Shown here: piece by piece, positions 6,404 through 18,426 of the stretch
Numbering within the stretch: the first letter of the stretch is position 1
Layout: each line of letters begins with the position of its first letter
Virus record (IMG/VR): IMGVR_UViG_2861043448_000001
Strand: one strand, 5' to 3'
DNA: 22,628 nt
DNA from: a virus
Taxonomy: Duplodnaviria > Heunggongvirae > Uroviricota > Caudoviricetes
Made by a program: the position numbers and the translations under genes
Notes under the pieces: generated by a model
The model's input: only the letters and a program-made list of their open reading frames with translations
The model's database searches: none
Told to the model about the DNA's origin: nothing

Positions 6404-6427
6404 GTCCGCTTTGTGCCAAGAGCGGAC
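6404..6427. repeat. 24-bp hairpin element, copy 1 (GTCCGCTTTGTGCCAAGAGCGGAC)
   Basis: Near-identical to the copy at 7619-7642; 9-bp stem, 6-nt loop; lies about 40 bp outside the 3' end of the GIY-YIG gene. Confidence 0.5.
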
Positions 6428-6464: not shown

Positions 6465-7409
6465 TCACAACCAGCCGACGCTCTCTCGCCATTTATAATT
6501 AGTAACTTTATCATTTTCGCTTATTTTTTTAGATATAGAGCGCGGCTCTCTTCCTAGATACTCAGATATTTCTATCGGGGACAAATCAAAATCAACAAGC
6601 ATGACTCTAAGTTTTTCCATTTCCTTTAAAGTCCAAGGCTTGCCATAATTTTCATAAAGAGATACCTTATGCTCCCTGATAGTTCGCTTTCTCTGAGTTT
6701 CACTTTCCCTCTGAAAAATCTCGCTTTTAAATTGTGAACGGAACTCTTTACAGAAGTTGTTATCAGTTTTTTTGTTATATAGATTGCTAAAAATAAGCTG
6801 GGATGCCGGGTCTAAATCAGGTGTGTTAATAATGAAAACTTTGACCTTTTCCATATAGGGATATTCAATTTTACCCAATATGCTTAATTGCTTTATATTA
6901 AAAAAACCTCTCAAATCAAAAGATTTAATGAGCTTTGATTGGATTACACTTTCAATCCTGCTTGCATTTAAATAACAGTACTTTGCCATTGGAAGGGCCC
7001 ATACTACCAGTTGAGGAATATATTTTTCTAATGCAATGCTCTGCCAATCAGTATCAAAGGTTTGGCTTTTTGCTAGCATGTTTTTCGGCAAATCAGAATA
7101 CATTGTGGTAGATGCCCATATCTTATAATCATTCGCCAAGGCTTGATAGTATTTTGTGTGGTTATGAATTTTATAAGCTGACATGAAGCGATAAACGTCT
7201 TCGTCGTGACCAGCGTCGTAAATTGTTCGATTTCCTCTAAGATAACCGTCGTAATGTTCGGTTATCCTTCTACCTACATTACAACTTACCCCAACGTAAA
7301 CCACACGACTGAAAAGTCCTTTATGGACAATAAGATAAACTCCGCTACAGCCAGATTTCCTGGCCTCTGATAGAGAACCTAAAAATCTCCATTCCATAAT
7401 TAAATCCAT
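6465..7409 (-). CDS. GIY-YIG nuclease-domain protein (314 aa) with uncharacterised C-terminal region
   Basis: N-terminus CSGVYLIVHKGLFSRVVYVGVSCNVGRRITEHY fits GIY-x(about 12)-YVG ... R ... E spacing of GIY-YIG nucleases. The gene is markedly AT-rich compared with flanking phage genes. Confidence 0.75.
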   Translation of the reverse strand: MDLIMEWRFLGSLSEARKSGCSGVYLIVHKGLFSRVVYVGVSCNVGRRITEHYDGYLRGNRTIYDAGHDEDVYRFMSAYKIHNHTKYYQALANDYKIWASTTMYSDLPKNMLAKSQTFDTDWQSIALEKYIPQLVVWALPMAKYCYLNASRIESVIQSKLIKSFDLRGFFNIKQLSILGKIEYPYMEKVKVFIINTPDLDPASQLIFSNLYNKKTDNNFCKEFRSQFKSEIFQRESETQRKRTIREHKVSLYENYGKPWTLKEMEKLRVMLVDFDLSPIEISEYLGREPRSISKKISENDKVTNYKWRESVGWL

Positions 7410-7579
7410 AATTATTGCTACTGTTTTTGTTTATCATTATTTTCGTGAAACTTCAACAATTTTATCCAAAAGCTAAGGGCAAAGACTTATATAATTATAC
7501 TTGTCATCGTTAGCGATTATATAGAGTAGTGGCGCTGACCTGCTCCCTGGTGATTCACACAGAATGCTGTTAGTAATGT

Positions 7580-7642
7580 CCGTTCCTCGCTCTCAGCGGA
7601 CCTTCAGCTCAGTGATATCGTCCGCTCTGTGCAAAGAGCGGA
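7580..7642. repeat. two tandem hairpin elements (GTCCGTTCCTCGCTCTCAGCGGAC and GTCCGCTCTGTGCAAAGAGCGGAC)
   Basis: Second unit is a perfect 9-bp stem with 6-nt loop and matches the copy at 6404-6427; located in the 547-bp spacer between the GIY-YIG gene and the 449-aa gene. A further CCGCTCT-containing imperfect dyad occurs near 7760-7790. Confidence 0.45.
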
Positions 7643-7956
7643 CGTTGGTATGCAAGAGCCCTCCAAAAGTTGATGGTTGGTTTGCAGGGGGGCTTAAAGA
7701 AACTGCACTTATCAAGTTGAAGTTCTGTATTCAGCGAAATCGTAGCACTCTGACGATAAGTAACTCCGGTACTCCGCTCTTCGATGAAGAACCAGAGTAA
7801 TCCCCCCGAAAAACCAGCGCATCAAAATTGGATCTTCAGCGGTAGCTTATCGGCTATCGGAAGTACAGGTGTGGATTCGTGGTGAATTGCTTTGATAATA
7901 AACGATTAATACGGAAAAACGCATTAATCATTTATTAGCTTTTAGTAAACCACAAT

Positions 7957-9306
7957 TTATTCCGTTTTACATATCATAGTAGTCGATTGGAGAATATAGT
8001 TTCTGGGAATGTACTCTTCAAAGTGTTCGTCCTTTTTAAATACATGAACTACATTTGGGAATAATTGATAGTCAACAGGGTGTATAGCGTTTGGATTATG
8101 GTACATGTACATGGCTGTACACCATGGTTCTTGATAGTTAGGGTCACTTACATCGGCTGAAAATGGATGTGGGGCTGCATCCTGATCAGTTTTAACACCA
8201 CTGACGTACACTTTGAATCCACTCGCCTCTACACCTGCAAGAATTCCCATCCGGTTAAACTTAGGTATGGTTGCTTGAGTAGTGAGTAAAACGGCAGAAA
8301 CATAATTATTTTGTTCTGAGCCAAAAAAGTTCGACTTGATACTTCTATTTTCATCTGTATGTCTTTCAATAGAAATGCCTGACTCAATATCAATCCCGTA
8401 CAAATAGCTATGCAAGGCTTCGCTTGAGAAGGCCATGGACATTCTTTTTGAATAATCCTGCATTGCTATGACAAATGGTTTGTTCTTTGTATGGTTGAGT
8501 TCCCAGTAATGAACTTTCTCTGGCTCAGGGCAATGCCGGACTTTTTTTAATAAACTTCTTGCAAACTTAAAAGGCATGACATTTAGAACATGTTTTCTTA
8601 ATTCATCCATCTGTTCATCGTTAATGACTTTTCTTTCAAGAGGGGCTTCTGCTTCAGCAATGCTTACAGCCTCTACAGCAATTTCCACTCCAAATTTAGA
8701 TAGCAGAAAATCTGGTTGATTGTATTCTCTATTCATTTCAAAGTCGAGTTCATAAAATACAGCGTTCAAATATAATTCAAATAACCTTGAATTAAATGCA
8801 TCACTTTGAAAATCCCTTATAAATATTCCATCAGGATCTTTGAACCAGTATGCAAGTTCCTCAAGAACAATATATGCAGGGAAATGAAGAGGGTCTTCGA
8901 GGAGCATTTTTATATAAACATTCCTTTTTTTCGCTGGGACCTTACTCAAGAATAATGAAAAAGGTTTGGTTGATTCATCGCCTTGCATGAATGTACCATT
9001 TTGGTGCTGCGCCAGCATCTTTGGTATGTCATCGTTCAAATTATTAAGCAAGACATCCATTGAATCAAATGAAGCCAAGACGTTTATTGCTCTGAATTTT
9101 TTATCTAAATCCCGACCTAAGACTATTGCGTTAAAATCTTTATCAATATTGCATATGATTATTGTGGATAACAATGTTATCCCATTCCCCTCATATTTAA
9201 ACCAGCGTATCTCCTCAGAAAATGTCTTAAGGTAAGGTGAGCGACCGTAAAAATAAATATCAAATTGTTCTTTGCTGATCTCACTGAAGTGTAATCCTGC
9301 GTTCAT
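7957..9306 (-). CDS. hypothetical protein (449 aa), no recognisable domain
   Basis: Long intact ORF with AAGGA SD 7-11 nt upstream of the ATG; AT-rich; same strand as the adjacent GIY-YIG gene. Confidence 0.7.
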   Translation of the reverse strand: MNAGLHFSEISKEQFDIYFYGRSPYLKTFSEEIRWFKYEGNGITLLSTIIICNIDKDFNAIVLGRDLDKKFRAINVLASFDSMDVLLNNLNDDIPKMLAQHQNGTFMQGDESTKPFSLFLSKVPAKKRNVYIKMLLEDPLHFPAYIVLEELAYWFKDPDGIFIRDFQSDAFNSRLFELYLNAVFYELDFEMNREYNQPDFLLSKFGVEIAVEAVSIAEAEAPLERKVINDEQMDELRKHVLNVMPFKFARSLLKKVRHCPEPEKVHYWELNHTKNKPFVIAMQDYSKRMSMAFSSEALHSYLYGIDIESGISIERHTDENRSIKSNFFGSEQNNYVSAVLLTTQATIPKFNRMGILAGVEASGFKVYVSGVKTDQDAAPHPFSADVSDPNYQEPWCTAMYMYHNPNAIHPVDYQLFPNVVHVFKKDEHFEEYIPRNYILQSTTMICKTE

Positions 9307-9428
9307 ACCAATTCCTTTTCAATGAATAATTGGCCTTTAGGAGTGATTCCCTTTGTCTTTAATTCAGTTCTAACTAGTTCTTTAATCCAATAGCCTAAGC
9401 TCATCATGCAGTTGGATCATAAGACAAC

Positions 9429-9457
9429 GCCCTATAGTGCTCGTGATACTATAGGGC
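9429..9457. promoter_or_regulatory. perfect 10-bp inverted repeat with 9-bp spacer (GCCCTATAGT-gctcgtgat-ACTATAGGGC)
   Basis: Seen directly in the divergent region between the 449-aa gene and the recombinase gene; geometry resembles an operator or recombinase core site. Confidence 0.35.
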
Positions 9458-9590
9458 ATCTGACCACACTGTTAACTGGAGTAACGACTATGGCAGGAAT
9501 ACAGCATAACCAAACTCACCCCAAACTTACATAGCGCTTTCTGGCCGTGAGCATAACAAGGTCCACTCCTCGCTCATAAGGGACAACCAT

Positions 9591-9623
9591 ACTCAAATCT
9601 CCCACATTGCAGGAGATTTGAGT
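9591..9623 (+). promoter_or_regulatory. perfect 12-bp stem-loop sequestering the recombinase ribosome-binding site
   Basis: ACTCAAATCTCC-cacattgca-GGAGATTTGAGT; the AGGAG SD (9611-9615) lies in the loop/3' arm junction and the ATG (9624) follows immediately. Confidence 0.45.
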
Positions 9624-10226
9624 ATGAACACGTCACCGTGGAACAAAGACCGTATCATAGGCCAAAAAAGACCACTTCAGATATCTCATATCTGGGGTAT
9701 CCGAATCCGACTTGAACTGGAAGGTAAAACTCGCGATTTAGCTCTGTTCAACATGGCCCTGGATAGTAAGCTTCGAGGCTGTGATCTGGTCAAACTCAAA
9801 GTATCTGATGTTGCATATGGTGGCTCTGTTTCAAGCAGAGCAACGGTGTTGCAACAGAAAACCGGTAGCCCTGTTCAATTTGAGATAACCAAAGGGACAA
9901 GAGAAGCTGTTGCTGCATTGATACAGCTTAGCAATTTGCACAGTAAAGACTTCTTGTTTCGGTCTAGGGTCGGAACTAACCAGCACATTTCAACCCGGCA
10001 ATACAACCGAATCTTTCATGGGGGGGTAGAAAAGCTTGGTCTCGAAGATTCGCTTTACAGCACACATTCCATGAGAAGAACAAAACCTTACCTGATCTAC
10101 AAGAAAACCAAGAATCTCCGGGTGATCCAACTTCTGTTGGGTCATAAGAAACTGGAAAGCACAGTCCGTTATCTGGGCATTGAAGTCGATGATGCGTTAG
10201 AGATTTCTGAATCGATTGAAGTCTAA
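9624..10226 (+). CDS. small tyrosine recombinase, catalytic domain only (FimB/FimE-sized, 200 aa)
   Basis: Catalytic signature ...LRGCD (Arg-I) ... HSMRRT ... LLGH ... TVRYL (Tyr nucleophile). No N-terminal arm-binding domain. The track ORF begins at TTG 9618; ATG 9624 with AGGAG 8 nt upstream is preferred. Confidence 0.8.
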   Translation: MNTSPWNKDRIIGQKRPLQISHIWGIRIRLELEGKTRDLALFNMALDSKLRGCDLVKLKVSDVAYGGSVSSRATVLQQKTGSPVQFEITKGTREAVAALIQLSNLHSKDFLFRSRVGTNQHISTRQYNRIFHGGVEKLGLEDSLYSTHSMRRTKPYLIYKKTKNLRVIQLLLGHKKLESTVRYLGIEVDDALEISESIEV

Positions 10227-10585
10227 GGTTGTCAGGGCTGCAACAGCAGCCCTGTGCCATAAGCGGAAGTATTTAACAACTATCAGTGTTGTTCAACAGA
10301 TAAAGGGGCACTTGATTTTTTCTGTTCTCAGGAAATGATAAAAGCGCGTCGGTTCAAGCCTGCTTAACGGGAGTTTGTTAATCCTGTTGCCGTGACGTTT
10401 TGACACCATTATGATGGGGAGACACTTAATGTATGAAGGTTCCGCCACTTATACCTGTCCAACAACTGCCTCGGATGTTTCTTTGTATGAATAAGTGGTA
10501 ATGAGTAGTGAATCGCTAACAGTCACCCGAACAATCGGTGCCTGCAATTAATTCTATATTCTAAACGAGGGGGAGATTATTACAC

Positions 10586-11566
10586 ATGAAATTTAAGGAC
10601 AAGAACCTTAAGGCTCTCGCGGAATGTATCATAGGAGATAATAAGGCATTTCTGTATCGTTCAAGCAGTCACATCACTGAATTTTTCCAGGACTGCGGCA
10701 TGGATGTTACTCATGACGGATCCACTCGGTGGAAATGGACGGCCCAGAGGCTTGAAGAACTTCTTTATGAGCCACAGTCAAAGCCACATACTTTGCCGGA
10801 AAGGTTTGTTCATGTGCTCAGAACTTTAATGTTAAAAGAAGATGCAATGGATGACGATCCAGGAAGATTAAAGGCGCTTGAAGAACTGAACAAGCCTTTG
10901 ATGCGGGAAGGCTATGAGGCATTCTATGGTGACGATCGCCTTTTGTATATACGCCATACCGATACCAAAACGGTTTCAGTCAGTAATAACCCTCATCGGC
11001 CCTTAACGCCTCACGAAGTAGAATGCAGAAGGTTACTGACCGCGTTTCTTGATACCTGCTCAGAAGATGAGTTAATAGAAGATATTCTCCTTCCTTTATT
11101 CCGGCAACTTGGTTTTCACCGGATAACAGCAGTGGGACATAAAGATAAAGCGCTGGAATACGGGAAAGACATCTGGATGAAGTTCACACTGCCAACTCAG
11201 CATGTTCTTTATTTCGGCATTCAGGCAAAAAAAGGTAAGTTGGATGCGTCCGGTGCCAGCAAATCTACGAATTCAAACGTGGCAGAAATCTTCAACCAGG
11301 TACTGATGATGCTTGGCCATGAAATATTTGACCCAGAAACAAATAGAAAGGTGCTGGTAGATCATGCCTTTATCGTTGCTGGCGGAGAAATTACTAAACA
11401 GGCGAGGAACTGGCTGGGCGGGAAACTTGATGCCAGCAAAAGAAGCCAGATAATATTTATGGACCGGGAAGACATTCTTAATTTATATACTGTAAGTAAT
11501 GTACCTCTGCCAACAGGTGCTCTCATCTCTGATGATGCCGTTAAGAACGATGATATTCCTTTCTAA
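10586..11566 (+). CDS. protein with C-terminal Mrr-like PD-(D/E)xK nuclease motif and unknown N-terminal domain (326 aa)
   Basis: Strong SD (GAGGGGGAG). C-terminal half ...HRITAVGHKDKALEYGKDIWMKF...LYFGIQAKKG... resembles the Mrr catalytic core (D ... Q-x-K). Confidence 0.7.
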   Translation: MKFKDKNLKALAECIIGDNKAFLYRSSSHITEFFQDCGMDVTHDGSTRWKWTAQRLEELLYEPQSKPHTLPERFVHVLRTLMLKEDAMDDDPGRLKALEELNKPLMREGYEAFYGDDRLLYIRHTDTKTVSVSNNPHRPLTPHEVECRRLLTAFLDTCSEDELIEDILLPLFRQLGFHRITAVGHKDKALEYGKDIWMKFTLPTQHVLYFGIQAKKGKLDASGASKSTNSNVAEIFNQVLMMLGHEIFDPETNRKVLVDHAFIVAGGEITKQARNWLGGKLDASKRSQIIFMDREDILNLYTVSNVPLPTGALISDDAVKNDDIPF

Positions 11567-11993
11567 TCAGAAGTACGTCTTTTTCTGAAAGAATACGTGA
11601 TAGGTAGCCACACCACACCTTTAGTGACCCCTTAATCTGGTAATATAACAGCCCGTATGAATGTCCGCGGCATCGCGGGCTGAAATTTATTAAAAATACT
11701 TATTCATCAAGCTGGAGTAGTTTGCCGAGTAACTGTAAACGCCCAACTTAACCGGACCATTCACTTTTAGATTGCTACCAGCAAACCAACTTCCGTTTCT
11801 CGCTCAAAGCGGACTAGAAGGTTAGCTTGCGTCGGACTTGGCGTATTTAAAGAAGTGCTGGTGGTAACTGGTTGTTGTGTTCCATTTCTACAAAACAAAA
11901 TCACAGAAACTATACCCAATAGTTATATTGAATCAATGATGAGACAGCCTCATATTTATCAGAACTGGTGTACGTCCAATACAGGAGGTTGTC

Positions 11994-12083: not shown

Positions 12084-12237
12084 TTTTATATTGGCGAGGT
12101 GACGGGAGTTAAGTAGAATTGCTGCGGGTGCTTGAGGCTATCTGCCTCAGGCATGAACACCAAAGGCAGATAGAGAAAAGCCCCAGTTAACATTACGCGT
12201 CCTGCAAGACGTTTAACATTAATCTGAGGCTCAATCT

Positions 12238-12450
12238 ATGAACGGCAAATCTAGGTTAGCCTCTTACGTGCCGAAAGGCAAGGAGAAGCAGGCTATGAAG
12301 CAGCAAAAGGCGATGTTAATCGCCCTGATCGTCATCTGTTTAACCGTCATAATGACGGCACTGGTAACGAGGAAAGACCTCTGCGAGGTACGAATCCGAA
12401 CCGGCCAGACGGAGGTCGCTGTCTTCACAGCTTACGAACCTGAGGAGTAA
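12238..12450 (+). CDS. hok: Hok/Gef family type I toxin with in-frame Mok leader (hok proper = 12295..12450)
   Basis: MKQQKAMLIALIVICLTVIMTALVTRKDLCEVRIRTGQTEVAVFTAYEPEE is a near-match to Hok/Gef toxins; in-frame upstream extension from ATG 12238 as in chromosomal mok; candidate promoter TTGGCG-17-TAGAAT about 12097-12125. Confidence 0.85.
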   Translation: MNGKSRLASYVPKGKEKQAMKQQKAMLIALIVICLTVIMTALVTRKDLCEVRIRTGQTEVAVFTAYEPEE

Positions 12451-15661: not shown

Positions 15662-15737
15662 GGCCCTTTAGCTCAGTGGTGAGAGCGAGCGACTCATAAT
15701 CGACAGGTCGCTGGGTCAAATCCAGCAAGGGCCACCA
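15662..15737 (+). tRNA. tRNA with CAU anticodon (Ile2/Met type, ileX-like)
   Basis: Cloverleaf read by eye: acceptor GGCCCTT/AAGGGCC, anticodon loop CUCAUAA, T-arm GCUGG-GUCAAAU-CCAGC, 3' ACCA. Close to E. coli ileX as recalled. Confidence 0.85.
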
Positions 15738-15738
15738 A

Positions 15739-15815
15739 CCGTCACCAGTTCATCAGGAAAGAGCGTCAACCCTTTAAGTTGAGTGTGCGAGGTTCGAGTC
15801 CCCGGTGGCGGTCCA
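15739..15815 (+). tRNA. atypical tRNA-like gene (anticodon loop CCUUUAA; identity uncertain, possibly degenerate)
   Basis: 77 nt with acceptor, D, anticodon and T arms, but C at positions 8 and 33 and an A-C mismatch in the T-stem. Confidence 0.4.
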
Positions 15816-15817
15816 GT

Positions 15818-15893
<76 letters not shown>

Positions 15894-15896
15894 TAT

Positions 15897-15971
<75 letters not shown>

Positions 15972-16263: not shown

Positions 16264-18426
16264 ATGAAATCCATGGACAAAATTTCAACGGGCATTGCCT
16301 ATGGCACCTCCGCAGGCAGTGCTGGCTACTGGTTTTTACAGCTGCTCGATAAAGTCACGCCCTCACAGTGGGCAGCAATAGGTGTGCTGGGTATCCGCAC
16401 CGGCGGGCGCGTGCTGGCGGTAAACAGCCAGACCCGGACGCTGACGCTCGACCGTGAAATCACGCTGCCATCTTCCGGCACCACGCTGATAAGCCTGGTT
16501 GACGGGCAGGGGAGTCCGGTCAGCGTGGAGGTTCAGTCCGTCACCGACGGCGTGAAGGTGAAAGTGAGCCGTGTTCCTGACGGCGTTGCTGAATACAGCG
16601 TATGGGGGCTGAAGCTGCCGACGCTGCGCCAGCGCCTGTTCCGCTGCGTGAGTATCCGTGAGAACGACGACGGCACGTATGCCATCACCGCCGTGCAGCA
16701 TGTACCGGAAAAAGAGGCCATCGTGGATAACGGGGCGCACTTTGACGGCGACCAGAGCGGCACGGTAAATGGTGTCACGCCGCCAGCGGTGCAGCACCTG
16801 ACCGCAGAAGTCACCGCAGACAGCGGGGAATACCAGGTGCTGGCCCGCTGGGACACGCCGAAGGTGGTGAAGGGCGTGAGCTTCCTGCTTCGCCTGACCG
16901 TGGCAGCGGATGACGGCCGTGAGCGGCTGGTCAGCACGGCCCGGACGACGGAAACCACTTACCGCTTCACACAACTGGCTCTGGGGAACTACAGGCTGAC
17001 AGTCCGGGCAGTAAATGCGCGGGGGCAGCAGGGCGATCCGGCGTCGGTATCGTTCCGGATTGCCGCACCGGCAGCGCCGTCGCGGATTGAGCTGACGCCG
17101 GGCTATTTTCAGATAACCGCCACGCCGCATCTTGCGGTTTATGACCCGACGGTACAGTTTGAGTTCTGGTTCTCGGAAAAACGGATTGCGGATATCAGGC
17201 AGGTTGAAACCAGCGCGCGTTATCTTGGTACGGCACTGTACTGGATAGCCGCCAGTATCAATATCAAACCGGGCCATGATTATTATTTTTACGTTCGCAG
17301 TGTGAACACCGTTGGCAAATCGGCATTCGTGGAGGCTGTCGGTCAGCCGAGTGATGATGCATCAGGCTATCTGGATTTTTTCAAAGGCGAGATAGGGAAA
17401 ACCCATCTGGCTCAGGAGCTGTGGACGCAGATTGATAACGGTCAGCTTGCGCCTGACCTGACTGAAATCAGGACGTCCATAACGGATGTCAGCAATGAAA
17501 TAACACAGACCGTCAATAAGAAACTGGAAGACCAGAGTGCAGCGATCCAGCAGATACAGAAGGTTCAGGTTGATACAAATAATAACCTGAACAGCATGTG
17601 GGCAGTGAAGCTGCAGCAGATGCAGGACGGACGCCTTTATATTGCGGGTATCGGTGCCGGTATTGAGAACACCCCTGACGGCATGCAGAGTCAGGTGCTG
17701 CTGGCAGCAGACAGGATTGCGATGATTAATCCTGCGAATGGCAACACAAAGCCGATGTTTGTTGGTCAGGGCGATCAGATATTCATGAATGAAGTGTTCC
17801 TGAAACGCCTGACGGCCCCCACCATTACCAGCGGCGGTAATCCTCCGGCATTTTCCCTGACATCAGACGGGAGACTGACGGCGAAAAATGCGGATATCAG
17901 TGGCAGTGTGAATGCGAACTCAGGAACGCTCAACAATGTCACGATTAACCAGAACTGTACGATTAAGGGCATGCTGGAGGCGACCCAGGTCAGAGGAGAT
18001 TTCGTTAAAGCTGTATCAAAAGCCTTCCCGAAAAAAGTCGGTACGTGGGGTAACACGGAAACACCAAACGGTACGGTTACAGTAACCATCAGCGATGATC
18101 ATAACTTTGACCGCCAGATTATTATTCCGCCCATTATTTTTAACGGTATAGCGTATGACGATCCGGGGAGCGGAAATAACCCAGGAGGCACGCGATACAC
18201 GGGTTATGGTTTTGAAGTTCGCAAAAACGGCGTATTAATCGCATCCAGAGAAACTAAAGGGGCCATTCCCGGTAGTTACAGTGCAGTTATTGATATGCCG
18301 AGTGGCAGGGGAAGCGTCACTCTGGAGTTTAAGATTTTCCAGAAAGGCAATCAGGGGGCAGGCAATATCACCGACTGTACGGTGATTGTGACCAAAAAAG
18401 CGGCTTCCGGCATCAGTATTCGTTGA
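16264..18426 (+). CDS. chimeric ORF: class II (phage 21 S-type) holin N-terminus (43 aa) fused in frame to the C-terminal about 677 aa of tail tip host-specificity protein J
   Basis: Residues 1-43 ([26 protein letters not shown]...AAIGVLG) match the phage 21 pinholin N-terminus as recalled; from residue 44 ([20 protein letters not shown]...) to the end the protein is collinear with lambda J from about residue 455. Strong SD (GGAGGTGAGG). Junction at about nt 16392/16393. Confidence 0.8.

What the first reader, a model, noticed from the sequence alone, without database searches (positions are those of the whole stretch)
9591..9626. Recombinase ribosome-binding site locked in a perfect 12-bp stem ending at the start codon
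ACTCAAATCTCC-cacattgca-GGAGATTTGAGT|ATG places the AGGAG Shine-Dalgarno inside the hairpin and the ATG directly after the 3' arm. This implies strong translational repression, as seen for transposases, recombinases and toxins whose expression must be kept rare. Alternatively the 12-9-12 dyad could itself be a recombination site.
Basis: seen in the sequence. Interest (0 to 1): 0.5.

Follow-up and report, generated by a model that had tools for sequence, protein, structure and literature searches.

The report
Hairpin masks small recombinase start site
A perfect 15-base-pair hairpin buries the ribosome-binding site and start codon of a tiny, very widespread recombinase gene that sits between swappable (largely anti-phage) gene cassettes. 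It most likely keeps the enzyme almost untranslated, and the real recombination sites lie beside the hairpin, not in it.

Summary
The inverted repeat is 15-9-15 (9588-9602 / 9612-9626), perfect, and includes the ATG itself. It is the longest perfect hairpin in the window. Its predicted RNA stability (-21 to -27 kcal/mol) exceeds every shuffle and the start regions of all 100 neighbouring annotated genes.

The gene (9624-10226) encodes a 200-aa catalytic-domain-only tyrosine recombinase. It matches 931 of 5,426 complete E. coli genomes and 548 loci in a one-genome-per-species collection. All 14 representative upstream sequence types folded keep a stem over the Shine-Dalgarno, including 59-66% identical homologues with unrelated stem sequences, and 11 of 14 also cover the AUG. 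The best reading is therefore translational occlusion. No reporter, structure-probing or transcript-mapping data exist.

Comparison with a strain lacking the gene places the crossover in a separate 24-bp palindrome, GTCCGCT-N10-AGCGGAC, at 9561-9584, whose end is 3 nt upstream of the dyad.

Such sites come in two classes. They bound every neighbouring gene, including the PD-T7-1 defence gene, and form an integron-like cassette array with the recombinase in one junction. I found no description of this system in the searchable literature.

Caveats: the hairpin is equally strong next to broken gene copies, and the wobble-pair test for an RNA-level function is weak.

The parts
9588..9602 (+). 5' arm of the hairpin (anti-AUG CAT, anti-SD CUCC). 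It also contains a -10-like hexamer, CATACT.
9603..9611 (+). 9-nt A/C-rich loop, CACATTGCA. The last A is the first base of the AGGAG Shine-Dalgarno.
9612..9626 (+). 3' arm of the hairpin: GGAG of the Shine-Dalgarno (9612-9615), an 8-nt spacer and the ATG start codon (9624-9626).
9624..10226 (+). 200-aa tyrosine recombinase consisting of the catalytic domain only. It carries R51, H148-x-x-R151, H174 and Y183. The window's copy has G at the otherwise near-invariant W134.
9561..9584 (+). Class I recombination site C, GTCCACTC CTCGCTCA TAAGGGAC. The crossover lies in or beside TCGCTCA (9570-9576). This is the left boundary of the conserved recombinase module.
10233..10254 (+). Conserved 9-4-9 GC-rich hairpin, CAGGGCTGC-aaca-GCAGCCCTG, just after the stop codon. 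Its 3' arm doubles as the left arm of site D.
10245..10268 (+). Class II-like site D, AGCAGCCC TGTGCCAT AAGCGGAA. This is the right boundary of the recombinase module.
11791..11814 (+). Class I site E, TTCCGTTT CTCGCTCA AAGCGGAC. It is the partner of site C in the 2,230-bp presence/absence polymorphism.
10586..11566 (+). Cargo gene (326 aa, no family hit) in the cassette between sites D and E.
7620..7643 (+). Class II site B, GTCCGCTC TGTGCAAA GAGCGGAC. This is the left boundary of the PD-T7-1 cassette.
7957..9306 (-). PD-T7-1 anti-phage defence gene, the cargo of the cassette spanning 7620-9584.
7578..7601 (+). Class I site B', GTCCGTTC CTCGCTCT CAGCGGAC. Together with B it forms an I-18 nt-II double junction.
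6404..6427 (+). Class II site A, GTCCGCTT TGTGCCAA GAGCGGAC. It is the partner of site B in the 1,216-bp polymorphism that carries the 314-aa gene (6465-7409, minus strand).

Best explanation
The 15-9-15 repeat acts in the mRNA as a translational lock. The 5' arm pairs with the Shine-Dalgarno, the spacer and the AUG of a small tyrosine recombinase gene. Any transcript that contains both arms is therefore almost untranslatable, and the recombinase is made only rarely.

The gene sits inside a junction between mobile gene cassettes, with a class I site 3 nt upstream of the hairpin and a class II-like site just after a second hairpin at the 3' end. Its neighbours are continually replaced and can be transcribed towards it. 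The lock therefore also insulates recombinase synthesis from whatever promoter happens to lie upstream.

Shown here: the structure, its exceptional stability, its position over the SD and AUG, its persistence across the family with different sequences, and the separate location of the crossover site.

Inferred: that it forms in vivo, that it represses translation, and that the recombinase acts on the neighbouring sites.

Unknown: how the lock is ever relieved.
For: Structure and stability: 15 perfect pairs that include the SD and AUG. RNA folding gives -27.1 kcal/mol with z = -5.6. The stem is more stable, and the RBS more fully paired, than at all 100 neighbouring gene starts, where the runner-up is hokD, a toxin mRNA known (own knowledge) to be translationally occluded.

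Family-wide conservation: in 31 distinct close relatives 96% of stem cells pair. All 22 one-sided changes that keep a standard pair give G.U, and 5 cells carry changes on both sides (C-G to U-A or A-U). Shifted-register controls pair only 23-44%.

All 14 representative sequence types folded are predicted to pair the SD (P 0.54-1.0), and 11 of the 14 pair the AUG (P >= 0.64). These include Idiomarina, Alteromonas and Pseudoalteromonas types and 59-66% identical viral-contig homologues with unrelated arm sequences, bulges and unequal arms. Unequal arms and bulges fit an RNA stem better than a symmetric protein-binding site.

Other points: no sigma-70 consensus promoter lies inside the module upstream of the ATG, so most transcripts must enter from outside and carry both arms. 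No U-tract follows the stem, so it is not a terminator. The gene encodes a recombinase with an intact catalytic tetrad, a class of enzyme whose expression is typically kept low (own knowledge: IS10 and IS50 transposases).
Against: There are no expression, structure-probing or transcript-start data.

The strand-specific test is weak. G.U versus A.C mismatches are 22 vs 12 cells and 36 vs 25, so an RNA-level function is not separated statistically from a DNA palindrome.

Within the close family only 2 of 15 pair positions show two or more Watson-Crick pair types. Most of the evidence therefore comes from conservation plus the distant homologues.

The hairpin is as stable next to disrupted or truncated gene copies (n = 38, mean -17.0) as next to intact ones (n = 80, mean -16.8; p = 0.83). 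A 74-nt remnant made of half a site, the hairpin and 20 nt of the ORF persists without the gene in P2-like phages and more than 500 plasmids. This could mean recent decay, or a role independent of recombinase translation.

A -21 kcal/mol lock leaves open how any protein is made.
Confidence: 0.66

Rival explanations
1. This is an IS10/IS50-style 'protection from outside activation', a refinement of the best explanation rather than a contradiction of it. The element's own weak promoter would use the -10-like CATACT/CATAAT in the 5' arm and start transcription in the loop. Native transcripts would then lack the 5' arm and be translatable. Read-through transcripts from neighbouring cassettes would carry both arms and stay silent.
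For: The 5' arm begins with CATACT, or CATAAT in several lineages. A6, T7, A8 and T10 of that hexamer are invariant in 31 distinct sequences, while their pairing partners vary (T40 to C in 5, A38 to G in 2). Marine lineages have TGcCATAMT, which resembles an extended -10. A start about 7 nt downstream would fall at 9599-9602, at the end of the arm or in the loop. Neighbouring genes often point towards the recombinase.
Against: No -35 element exists at 16-18 bp spacing, and the consensus promoter scan finds nothing on the + strand between 9330 and 9624. CAT is already explained by pairing with the AUG. The distant homologues L106 and L112 have no such hexamer in the arm. There are no transcript-start data.
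Confidence: 0.2
2. The dyad works at the DNA level. It would be an accessory element of the adjacent recombination site C: a binding site for the recombinase or a host factor, or a cruciform or single-strand hairpin. It would control recombination or autoregulate transcription, and its overlap with the RBS would be secondary.
For: The dyad lies 3 nt from the atypical inner arm of site C, at a fixed distance: the site starts at -63 or -62 from the ATG in 32 of the 80 loci. A second conserved hairpin abuts the inner side of site D, so both module ends carry hairpins. The hairpin persists beside broken genes and in gene-less 74-nt remnants. The G.U versus A.C bias is weak. As single-stranded DNA it also folds strongly.
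Against: The arms bear no resemblance to the GTCCGCT/AGCGGAC arms of the real sites. In divergent homologues the arms differ in length (15 vs 14, 4x2 internal loops), which breaks dyad spacing, yet the SD and usually the AUG stay covered. In every lineage the 3' arm is exactly the SD-to-AUG segment, which a DNA element would have no reason to track.
Confidence: 0.12
3. The dyad is itself the recombinase's core crossover site, of the lox/FRT/dif type with two inverted binding arms around a spacer.
For: The 12/15-9-12/15 geometry resembles loxP (13-8-13) or FRT (own knowledge), and a recombinase gene follows it.
Against: In all compared contexts homology begins at TCGCTCA (9570-9576), upstream of the dyad, and the dyad always stays whole on the recombinase side. 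The empty site in strain P15-385 is GGTCCACTCC-TCGCTCA-AAGCGGAC, which joins the left half of site C to the right half of site E. No second copy of the arms exists in the window. The 24-bp sites occur 216 times in 80 loci against 19 in shuffles.
Confidence: 0.02

Closest known systems
IS10 (Tn10) and IS50 (Tn5) transposase mRNAs: fold-back inhibition, or protection from outside activation (own knowledge: Davis, Simons & Kleckner 1985; Krebs & Reznikoff 1986)
   Same: A 5' inverted repeat pairs with the ribosome-binding site and start codon of a mobile element's recombination enzyme. Read-through transcripts are not translated, and the enzyme stays rare.
   Different: Here the enzyme is a tyrosine recombinase, not a DDE transposase. 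An internal promoter that would bypass the 5' arm is not demonstrated: there is only a -10-like hexamer. The stem is longer and perfect (15 bp).
hok/sok-type toxin mRNAs (hokD/sok is present in this window at 12126-12300)
   Same: Translation is prevented by stable intramolecular pairing over the start region. hokD is the only neighbouring gene start whose stability approaches the recombinase's.
   Different: No antisense RNA, processing pathway or toxin is involved, and no Rfam family matches the hairpin.
Integrons (IntI, attI, attC cassettes)
   Same: A tyrosine recombinase is associated with an array of single-gene cassettes separated by imperfect palindromic sites of uniform polarity. Junctions between cassettes are composite, made of two simple sites 18 nt apart. 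The cargo includes anti-phage genes.
   Different: The recombinase is 200 aa with no core-binding domain, and the integron-integrase model TIGR02249 gives no hit. Its gene lies inside a cassette junction rather than beside an attI. The sites are 24-bp simple palindromes in two classes distinguished by their central sequence. Cargo genes lie in either orientation and appear to carry their own promoters.
FimB/FimE-type minimal tyrosine recombinases
   Same: About 200 aa, catalytic domain only. FimE aligns over 154 residues at 27% identity.
   Different: FimB gives no alignment. Scores are far below the NCBIfam invertase cut-offs: 27.5 vs 222. The sites here are in direct, not inverted, orientation: 187 vs 3. 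This predicts insertion and excision, not inversion.
Acinetobacter pdif modules (XerC/XerD sites flanking plasmid gene modules; own knowledge)
   Same: Discrete gene modules are bounded by short recombinase sites of two alternating kinds and are found in many replicon contexts.
   Different: The sites do not resemble dif, and a dedicated small recombinase travels with the array.
[quoted passage not shown] The paper is not held in the library, so its content is recalled, not checked.
   Same: The same hotspot, between the tail-fibre-assembly and sheath genes, carries a class II and a class I site, the recombinase or its 74-nt remnant. The title indicates that site-specific recombination at this locus was already proposed.
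   Different: I could not verify whether that paper identified these sites, this recombinase or the hairpin. Later hotspot papers that I could read do not mention them.

Membership tests
RBS-occluding 5'-UTR hairpin (translational lock) | The Shine-Dalgarno and start codon lie inside a stem. | tested here: met
   GGAG at 9612-9615 and ATG at 9624-9626 are both in the 3' arm.
RBS-occluding 5'-UTR hairpin (translational lock) | Stability is well beyond chance and beyond ordinary gene starts. | tested here: met
   z = -5.6, and 0 of 200 shuffles fold as well. The recombinase gives -21.3 kcal/mol against -6.0 +/- 3.3 for 100 neighbouring genes. It is the longest perfect repeat in the window.
RBS-occluding 5'-UTR hairpin (translational lock) | The structure is conserved among homologues with compensatory change. 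| tested here: met
   96% of cells pair, with 5 double changes. Distant homologues with unrelated arms still pair the SD. Within the close family the covariation is modest, at 2 of 15 positions.
RBS-occluding 5'-UTR hairpin (translational lock) | Disrupting the stem raises translation, and compensatory changes restore repression. | not testable with these tools
   Needs reporter fusions.
IS10-type protection from outside activation | The element's own transcription start lies downstream of the 5' arm. | tested here: inconclusive
   A -10-like CATACT sits in the arm with invariant A, T, A and T. There is no -35 and no consensus promoter hit. No transcript-start data exist.
lox/FRT/dif-like core recombination site | The crossover or homology breakpoint falls in the spacer between the two arms. 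| tested here: not met
   Breakpoints lie at 9570-9576, not at 9603-9611.
lox/FRT/dif-like core recombination site | A partner copy of the site exists. | tested here: not met
   No other copy of the arms at up to 2 mismatches.
Intrinsic transcription terminator | A GC-rich stem followed by a U-tract. | tested here: not met
   The stem is followed by AACACGTC. The terminator scan finds nothing at this position.
Integron integrase (IntI) | A match to the integron-integrase model, about 320 aa with the IntI-specific insertion. | tested here: not met
   TIGR02249 is not among the hits for this protein, and the length is 200 aa.
FimB/FimE tyrosine-type DNA invertases | A family-level sequence match, and inverted sites flanking an invertible segment. 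| tested here: not met
   PRK09871 scores 27.5 bits against a cut-off of 222. FimB gives no alignment, and FimE gives 27% identity. Sites are in direct orientation, 187 vs 3.
Known RNA families (Rfam 15) | A covariance-model match. | tested here: not met
   No family matches at 9588-9626 at the gathering threshold or at E <= 5.

The most novel reading that the evidence does not exclude
The hairpin would be the expression lock of a so far undescribed integron-like system. In it, a 200-aa catalytic-domain-only tyrosine recombinase is embedded in a cassette junction. It would insert, excise and exchange single-gene (largely anti-phage) cassettes through two heterospecific classes of 24-bp palindromic sites, with centres TCGCTCA and GTGCCAG. 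Such a system would explain how defence genes are swapped between P2-like and lambdoid prophage hotspots, genomic islands and plasmids across Enterobacterales and marine Gammaproteobacteria.
Probability: 0.4. Interest if true: 0.8.

Novelty: new variant of a known kind. Interest (0 to 1): 0.6.

Why it matters
The hairpin alone is a clean and very stable example of a familiar device, RBS occlusion on a mobile-element enzyme.

It matters more because of the gene it controls. This is a minimal tyrosine recombinase with a match in 931 of 5,426 complete E. coli genomes. It sits exactly where anti-phage genes are exchanged in prophage and island hotspots, flanked by precisely delimited cassettes.

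How defence genes move between hotspots is an open question, usually answered by homologous recombination at flanking core genes. A site-specific cassette system with a tightly locked recombinase would give a testable mechanism. The 24-bp sites would also give a simple way to delimit cassettes and find new defence genes. A 200-aa recombinase with 24-bp sites in two non-cross-reacting classes could also be useful for cassette-exchange engineering.

Tried and rejected
(1) Dyad as crossover site: rejected. Breakpoints lie upstream, and no second copy exists.

(2) Terminator: rejected, because there is no U-tract.

(3) Known RNA family: none found.

(4) Strand-specific wobble test (G.U vs A.C) to prove an RNA-level function: the bias is only mild, at 22 vs 12 and 36 vs 25 cells, so the test is inconclusive.

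(5) Natural experiment, asking whether the hairpin is weaker beside broken genes: no difference (p = 0.83). The test has low power because the broken copies are young.

(6) Consensus promoter inside the module: none found. The -10-in-the-arm idea is kept only as a low-confidence rival.

(7) Structure of the recombinase: the AlphaFold model built from the shallow 16-sequence alignment was unusable (pLDDT 37), so no fold search was run. phmmer against the PDB gave no hit.

(8) FimB/FimE membership: FimE is only a distant relative at 27% identity, and FimB gives no alignment.

(9) Literature: six full-text searches and several paper look-ups found no description of this recombinase, its sites or the hairpin (38, 45, 46, 50-52, 63, 94). 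The likely precedent, Nilsson et al. 2004, is not held, and Odegrip et al. 2006 is not held either.

(10) Upstream ORF coupling: the small upstream ORFs lie in the variable flank and are not conserved, as seen by inspecting. This idea was dropped.

Full report
**Observation**

The reported hairpin is present and is larger than described. CATACTCAAATCTCC (9588-9602) and GGAGATTTGAGTATG (9612-9626) form 15 perfect pairs around a 9-nt loop. The start codon is therefore inside the stem, paired with CAT, and not just after it. The Shine-Dalgarno aGGAG occupies 9611-9615, 8 nt before the ATG.

This is the longest perfect short-loop inverted repeat in the 22.6-kb window. Forty dinucleotide shuffles never exceeded 12 pairs. 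An 80-nt RNA segment folds at -27.1 kcal/mol with z = -5.6.

As a biological control I folded the -42..+3 region of 100 annotated genes from nine E. coli loci that carry this module. Their mean is -6.0 +/- 3.3 kcal/mol. The most stable is hokD at -16.3, and the recombinase gives -21.3. Its RBS pairing probability is 0.93, against a control mean of 0.38 that no control reaches.

**The gene**

ORF 9624-10226 encodes a 200-aa protein that matches only the catalytic domain of tyrosine recombinases (Pfam PF00589, 2e-17). All curated NCBIfam hits fall far below their cut-offs. The catalytic R, H-x-x-R, H and Y residues are invariant in an alignment of 16 homologues.

The closest characterised architecture is FimE, also about 200 aa, at 27% identity over 154 residues. 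FimB gives no alignment.

The family is very large and tightly conserved. At least 7,999 proteins score E <= 1e-10, and the best 120 listed hits share 77-98% identity across Enterobacterales, Idiomarina, Pseudoalteromonas and other Gammaproteobacteria. There are 548 loci in a one-genome-per-species collection. A match is present in 931 of 5,426 complete E. coli genomes and in 641 plasmid records.

The window itself is a defective lambdoid prophage at the rspB/ydfJ (Qin-type) site of E. coli.

**Is the stem conserved?**

In 31 distinct close relatives, 96.1% of stem cells form standard pairs, against 23-44% when the register is slid. All 22 one-sided changes that keep a standard pair give G.U. 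Five cells carry changes on both sides, C-G to U-A or A-U.

The more telling evidence comes from divergent members. Enterobacterial 'type C' copies and the Providencia, Idiomarina, Colwellia, Pseudoalteromonas and Alteromonas copies have altered arms. These include A-U to G-C and A-U to U-A replacements, bulges, and arms of unequal length, yet the SD stays paired.

Viral-contig homologues at only 59-66% protein identity have wholly unrelated arm sequences. They still place the SD in a stem, with predicted pairing probability 0.54-1.0. Five of these seven also pair the AUG (P >= 0.64), as do 11 of the 14 types overall. The feature that is conserved is coverage of the ribosome-binding site, not a particular sequence or a strict dyad geometry. 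That is what an RNA-level translational lock predicts.

**Where recombination really happens**

Alignment of the module from unrelated contexts shows that homology always begins at TCGCTCA (9570-9576) and ends about 10268. The hairpin always remains whole on the recombinase side.

Strain P15-385 carries the same prophage with PD-T7-1 but without the recombinase and the following gene. Its sequence joins window 9584 to window 11799 through a shared core: GGTCCACTCC-TCGCTCA-AAGCGGAC. The window has GGTCCACTCC-TCGCTCA-TAAGGGAC at 9560-9584 and CTTCCGTTTC-TCGCTCA-AAGCGGAC at 11790-11814. The crossover site is therefore a 24-bp imperfect palindrome, with arms GTCCGCT and AGCGGAC, that ends 3 nt before the dyad.

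The dyad arms do not resemble these arms and have no second copy in the window.

**The wider system**

The same 24-bp palindrome occurs five times in the window, against 0.65 expected. It occurs 216 times in 80 loci from other species, against 19 in shuffles.

The sites fall into two classes by their centre: class I (yTCGCTCA) and class II (TGTGCCAr). Their orientation relative to the recombinase gene is almost invariant: I+ 110 vs I- 2, and II+ 77 vs II- 1.

The window reads as follows: A (II, 6404), a 314-aa gene, B' (I, 7578), 18 nt, B (II, 7620), PD-T7-1, C (I, 9561), hairpin plus recombinase, D (II-like, 10245), a 326-aa gene, E (I, 11791), then hokD.

Compared with P15-385, the window has two extra segments. 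One is bounded by A and B (II x II) and the other by C and E (I x I). The PD-T7-1 cassette occurs elsewhere as exactly 7620-9584. 'I-about 18 nt-II' double junctions recur in other loci.

Each cassette is thus II-cargo-I, and the recombinase gene occupies one I...II junction.

The module is found in lambdoid prophages between the replication genes and hok. It is also found in the P2 tail hotspot, in tRNA-associated and CP4-like islands, and on plasmids. It is flanked by different cargo each time, including HEPN, DUF4145, restriction endonuclease and PD-T7-1 genes.

That this recombinase acts on these sites is an inference from constant association. Exchange of cassettes by double crossover at the two site classes is my hypothesis.

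**How the hairpin most likely works**

No consensus sigma-70 promoter lies in the 54 nt of module sequence upstream of the ATG. Neighbouring cargo genes often point towards the recombinase. Most transcripts that reach the gene should therefore contain both arms and be translationally silent.

A second conserved hairpin lies directly after the stop codon (10233-10254). It shows covariation, for example GAGGCAGA/TCTGCCTC in Colwellia and Pseudoalteromonas, and it overlaps site D. The module thus looks insulated at both ends from its changing neighbours.

I put 0.66 on a translational lock that keeps the recombinase rare.

A refinement at 0.2 is the IS10 scheme. The 5' arm starts with a -10-like CATACT/CATAAT whose A, T, A and T are invariant even where their pairing partners change. 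A start in the loop would give a translatable transcript. However, there is no -35, and distant homologues lack the hexamer.

**Evidence that cuts the other way**

G.U mismatches outnumber A.C mismatches only mildly, at 22 vs 12 and 36 vs 25 cells.

Only 2 of 15 positions covary within the close family.

The hairpin is as stable beside 38 disrupted or truncated copies as beside 80 intact ones.

A 74-nt remnant (9570-9643) survives without the gene in P2-like Yersinia phages and more than 500 Klebsiella plasmids. It comprises half of site C, the hairpin and 20 nt of the ORF, and is always cut after GTGGAA.

These observations keep alive a DNA-level accessory role next to site C (0.12). Against that role, the unequal arms in divergent lineages, and the fact that the 3' arm is always exactly the SD-to-AUG segment, are hard to explain.

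**Comparison with what is known**

Mechanistically this is the same device as fold-back inhibition of the IS10 and IS50 transposase mRNAs, and as occlusion in hok mRNAs (own knowledge). No Rfam family covers it.

The surrounding system resembles integrons and Acinetobacter pdif modules in logic. It fails the defining tests for IntI and for FimB/E invertases.

Six literature searches and several paper look-ups found no description of it. Recent studies of P2/P4 and phage hotspots that I could read do not mention a small recombinase or repeats.

Nilsson et al. 2004 proposed site-specific recombination at the P2 variable locus, judging by its title. It may have seen the same repeats, but it is not held and I could not check.

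**Verdict**

The main interpretation is supported by comparison but is untested experimentally, and the alternative is rejected. The hairpin is a new instance of a known regulatory device. Its context, a junction-embedded minimal recombinase within cassette arrays at defence hotspots, is the more interesting result and deserves experimental follow-up.

Noticed in passing
window 6404-6427, 7578-7601, 7620-7643, 9561-9584, 10245-10268, 11791-11814: There is an array of 24-bp palindromic sites (arms GTCCGCT/AGCGGAC) in two classes by centre, TCGCTCA and GTGCCAr. They bound every gene between the prophage replication genes and hokD. Two presence/absence polymorphisms relative to strain P15-385 have their junctions in these sites. 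The orientation of the sites is uniform in 80 loci from other species.
   Followed up: yes
window 10233-10254: A second conserved hairpin (9-4-9, GC-rich, no U-tract) lies directly after the recombinase stop codon. It shows compensatory variation in marine lineages. Its 3' arm takes the place of the left arm of site D.
   Followed up: partly
window 9570-9643; L146 2501-2574; L147 3001-3074: A 74-nt remnant (half of site C, the hairpin and the first 20 nt of the ORF) occurs without the gene in P2-like Yersinia phages, more than 500 Klebsiella plasmids and some E. coli chromosomes. It is always truncated after GTGGAA but joined to unrelated DNA. The shared endpoint is unexplained.
   Followed up: partly
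window 9429-9457: A perfect 10-9-10 dyad, GCCCTATAGT-N9-ACTATAGGGC, overlaps the -10 of the best predicted promoter for the divergent PD-T7-1 gene (minus strand, TTAACA-16-TATAGT, 9475..9448). It is possibly an operator.
   Followed up: no
window 10023-10025: The window's recombinase has Gly at position 134, inside a run of seven G. This position is Trp in 15 of the 16 aligned sequences. The copy shared by about 180 E. coli genomes may be impaired.
   Followed up: no
80 genome loci plus viral loci (for example L004, L008, L041, L046, L073, L121): About a third of the recombinase copies sampled (38 of 118) are interrupted or truncated, yet keep the upstream site and hairpin.
   Followed up: partly
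L047 3171 and 3961; L028 3171 and 5387; L076 1185 and 3916; L081 3923 and 8119: Several loci carry two hairpin/recombinase modules, or a module plus a remnant, in the same array. In L047 they are only 790 bp apart.
   Followed up: no
window 16264-18426: A single ORF fuses the first ~43 residues of a P21-type holin to the C-terminal ~680 residues of the lambda tail-tip protein J. This indicates a large deletion that removed the lysis, head and most tail genes, so the prophage is defective.
   Followed up: no
L009 4730-4770 and 7150-7190; L146 1130-1175: In P2-like prophages the cassette array is framed by an inverted repeat of backbone sequence: AATCTGACA before the class II site, and TGTCAGATT after the class I site.
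   Followed up: no
window 12126-12300 and 15662-15968: There is a sok antitoxin RNA next to hokD, and three tRNA genes downstream of the Q antiterminator gene. These are ordinary features of lambdoid prophages.
   Followed up: no
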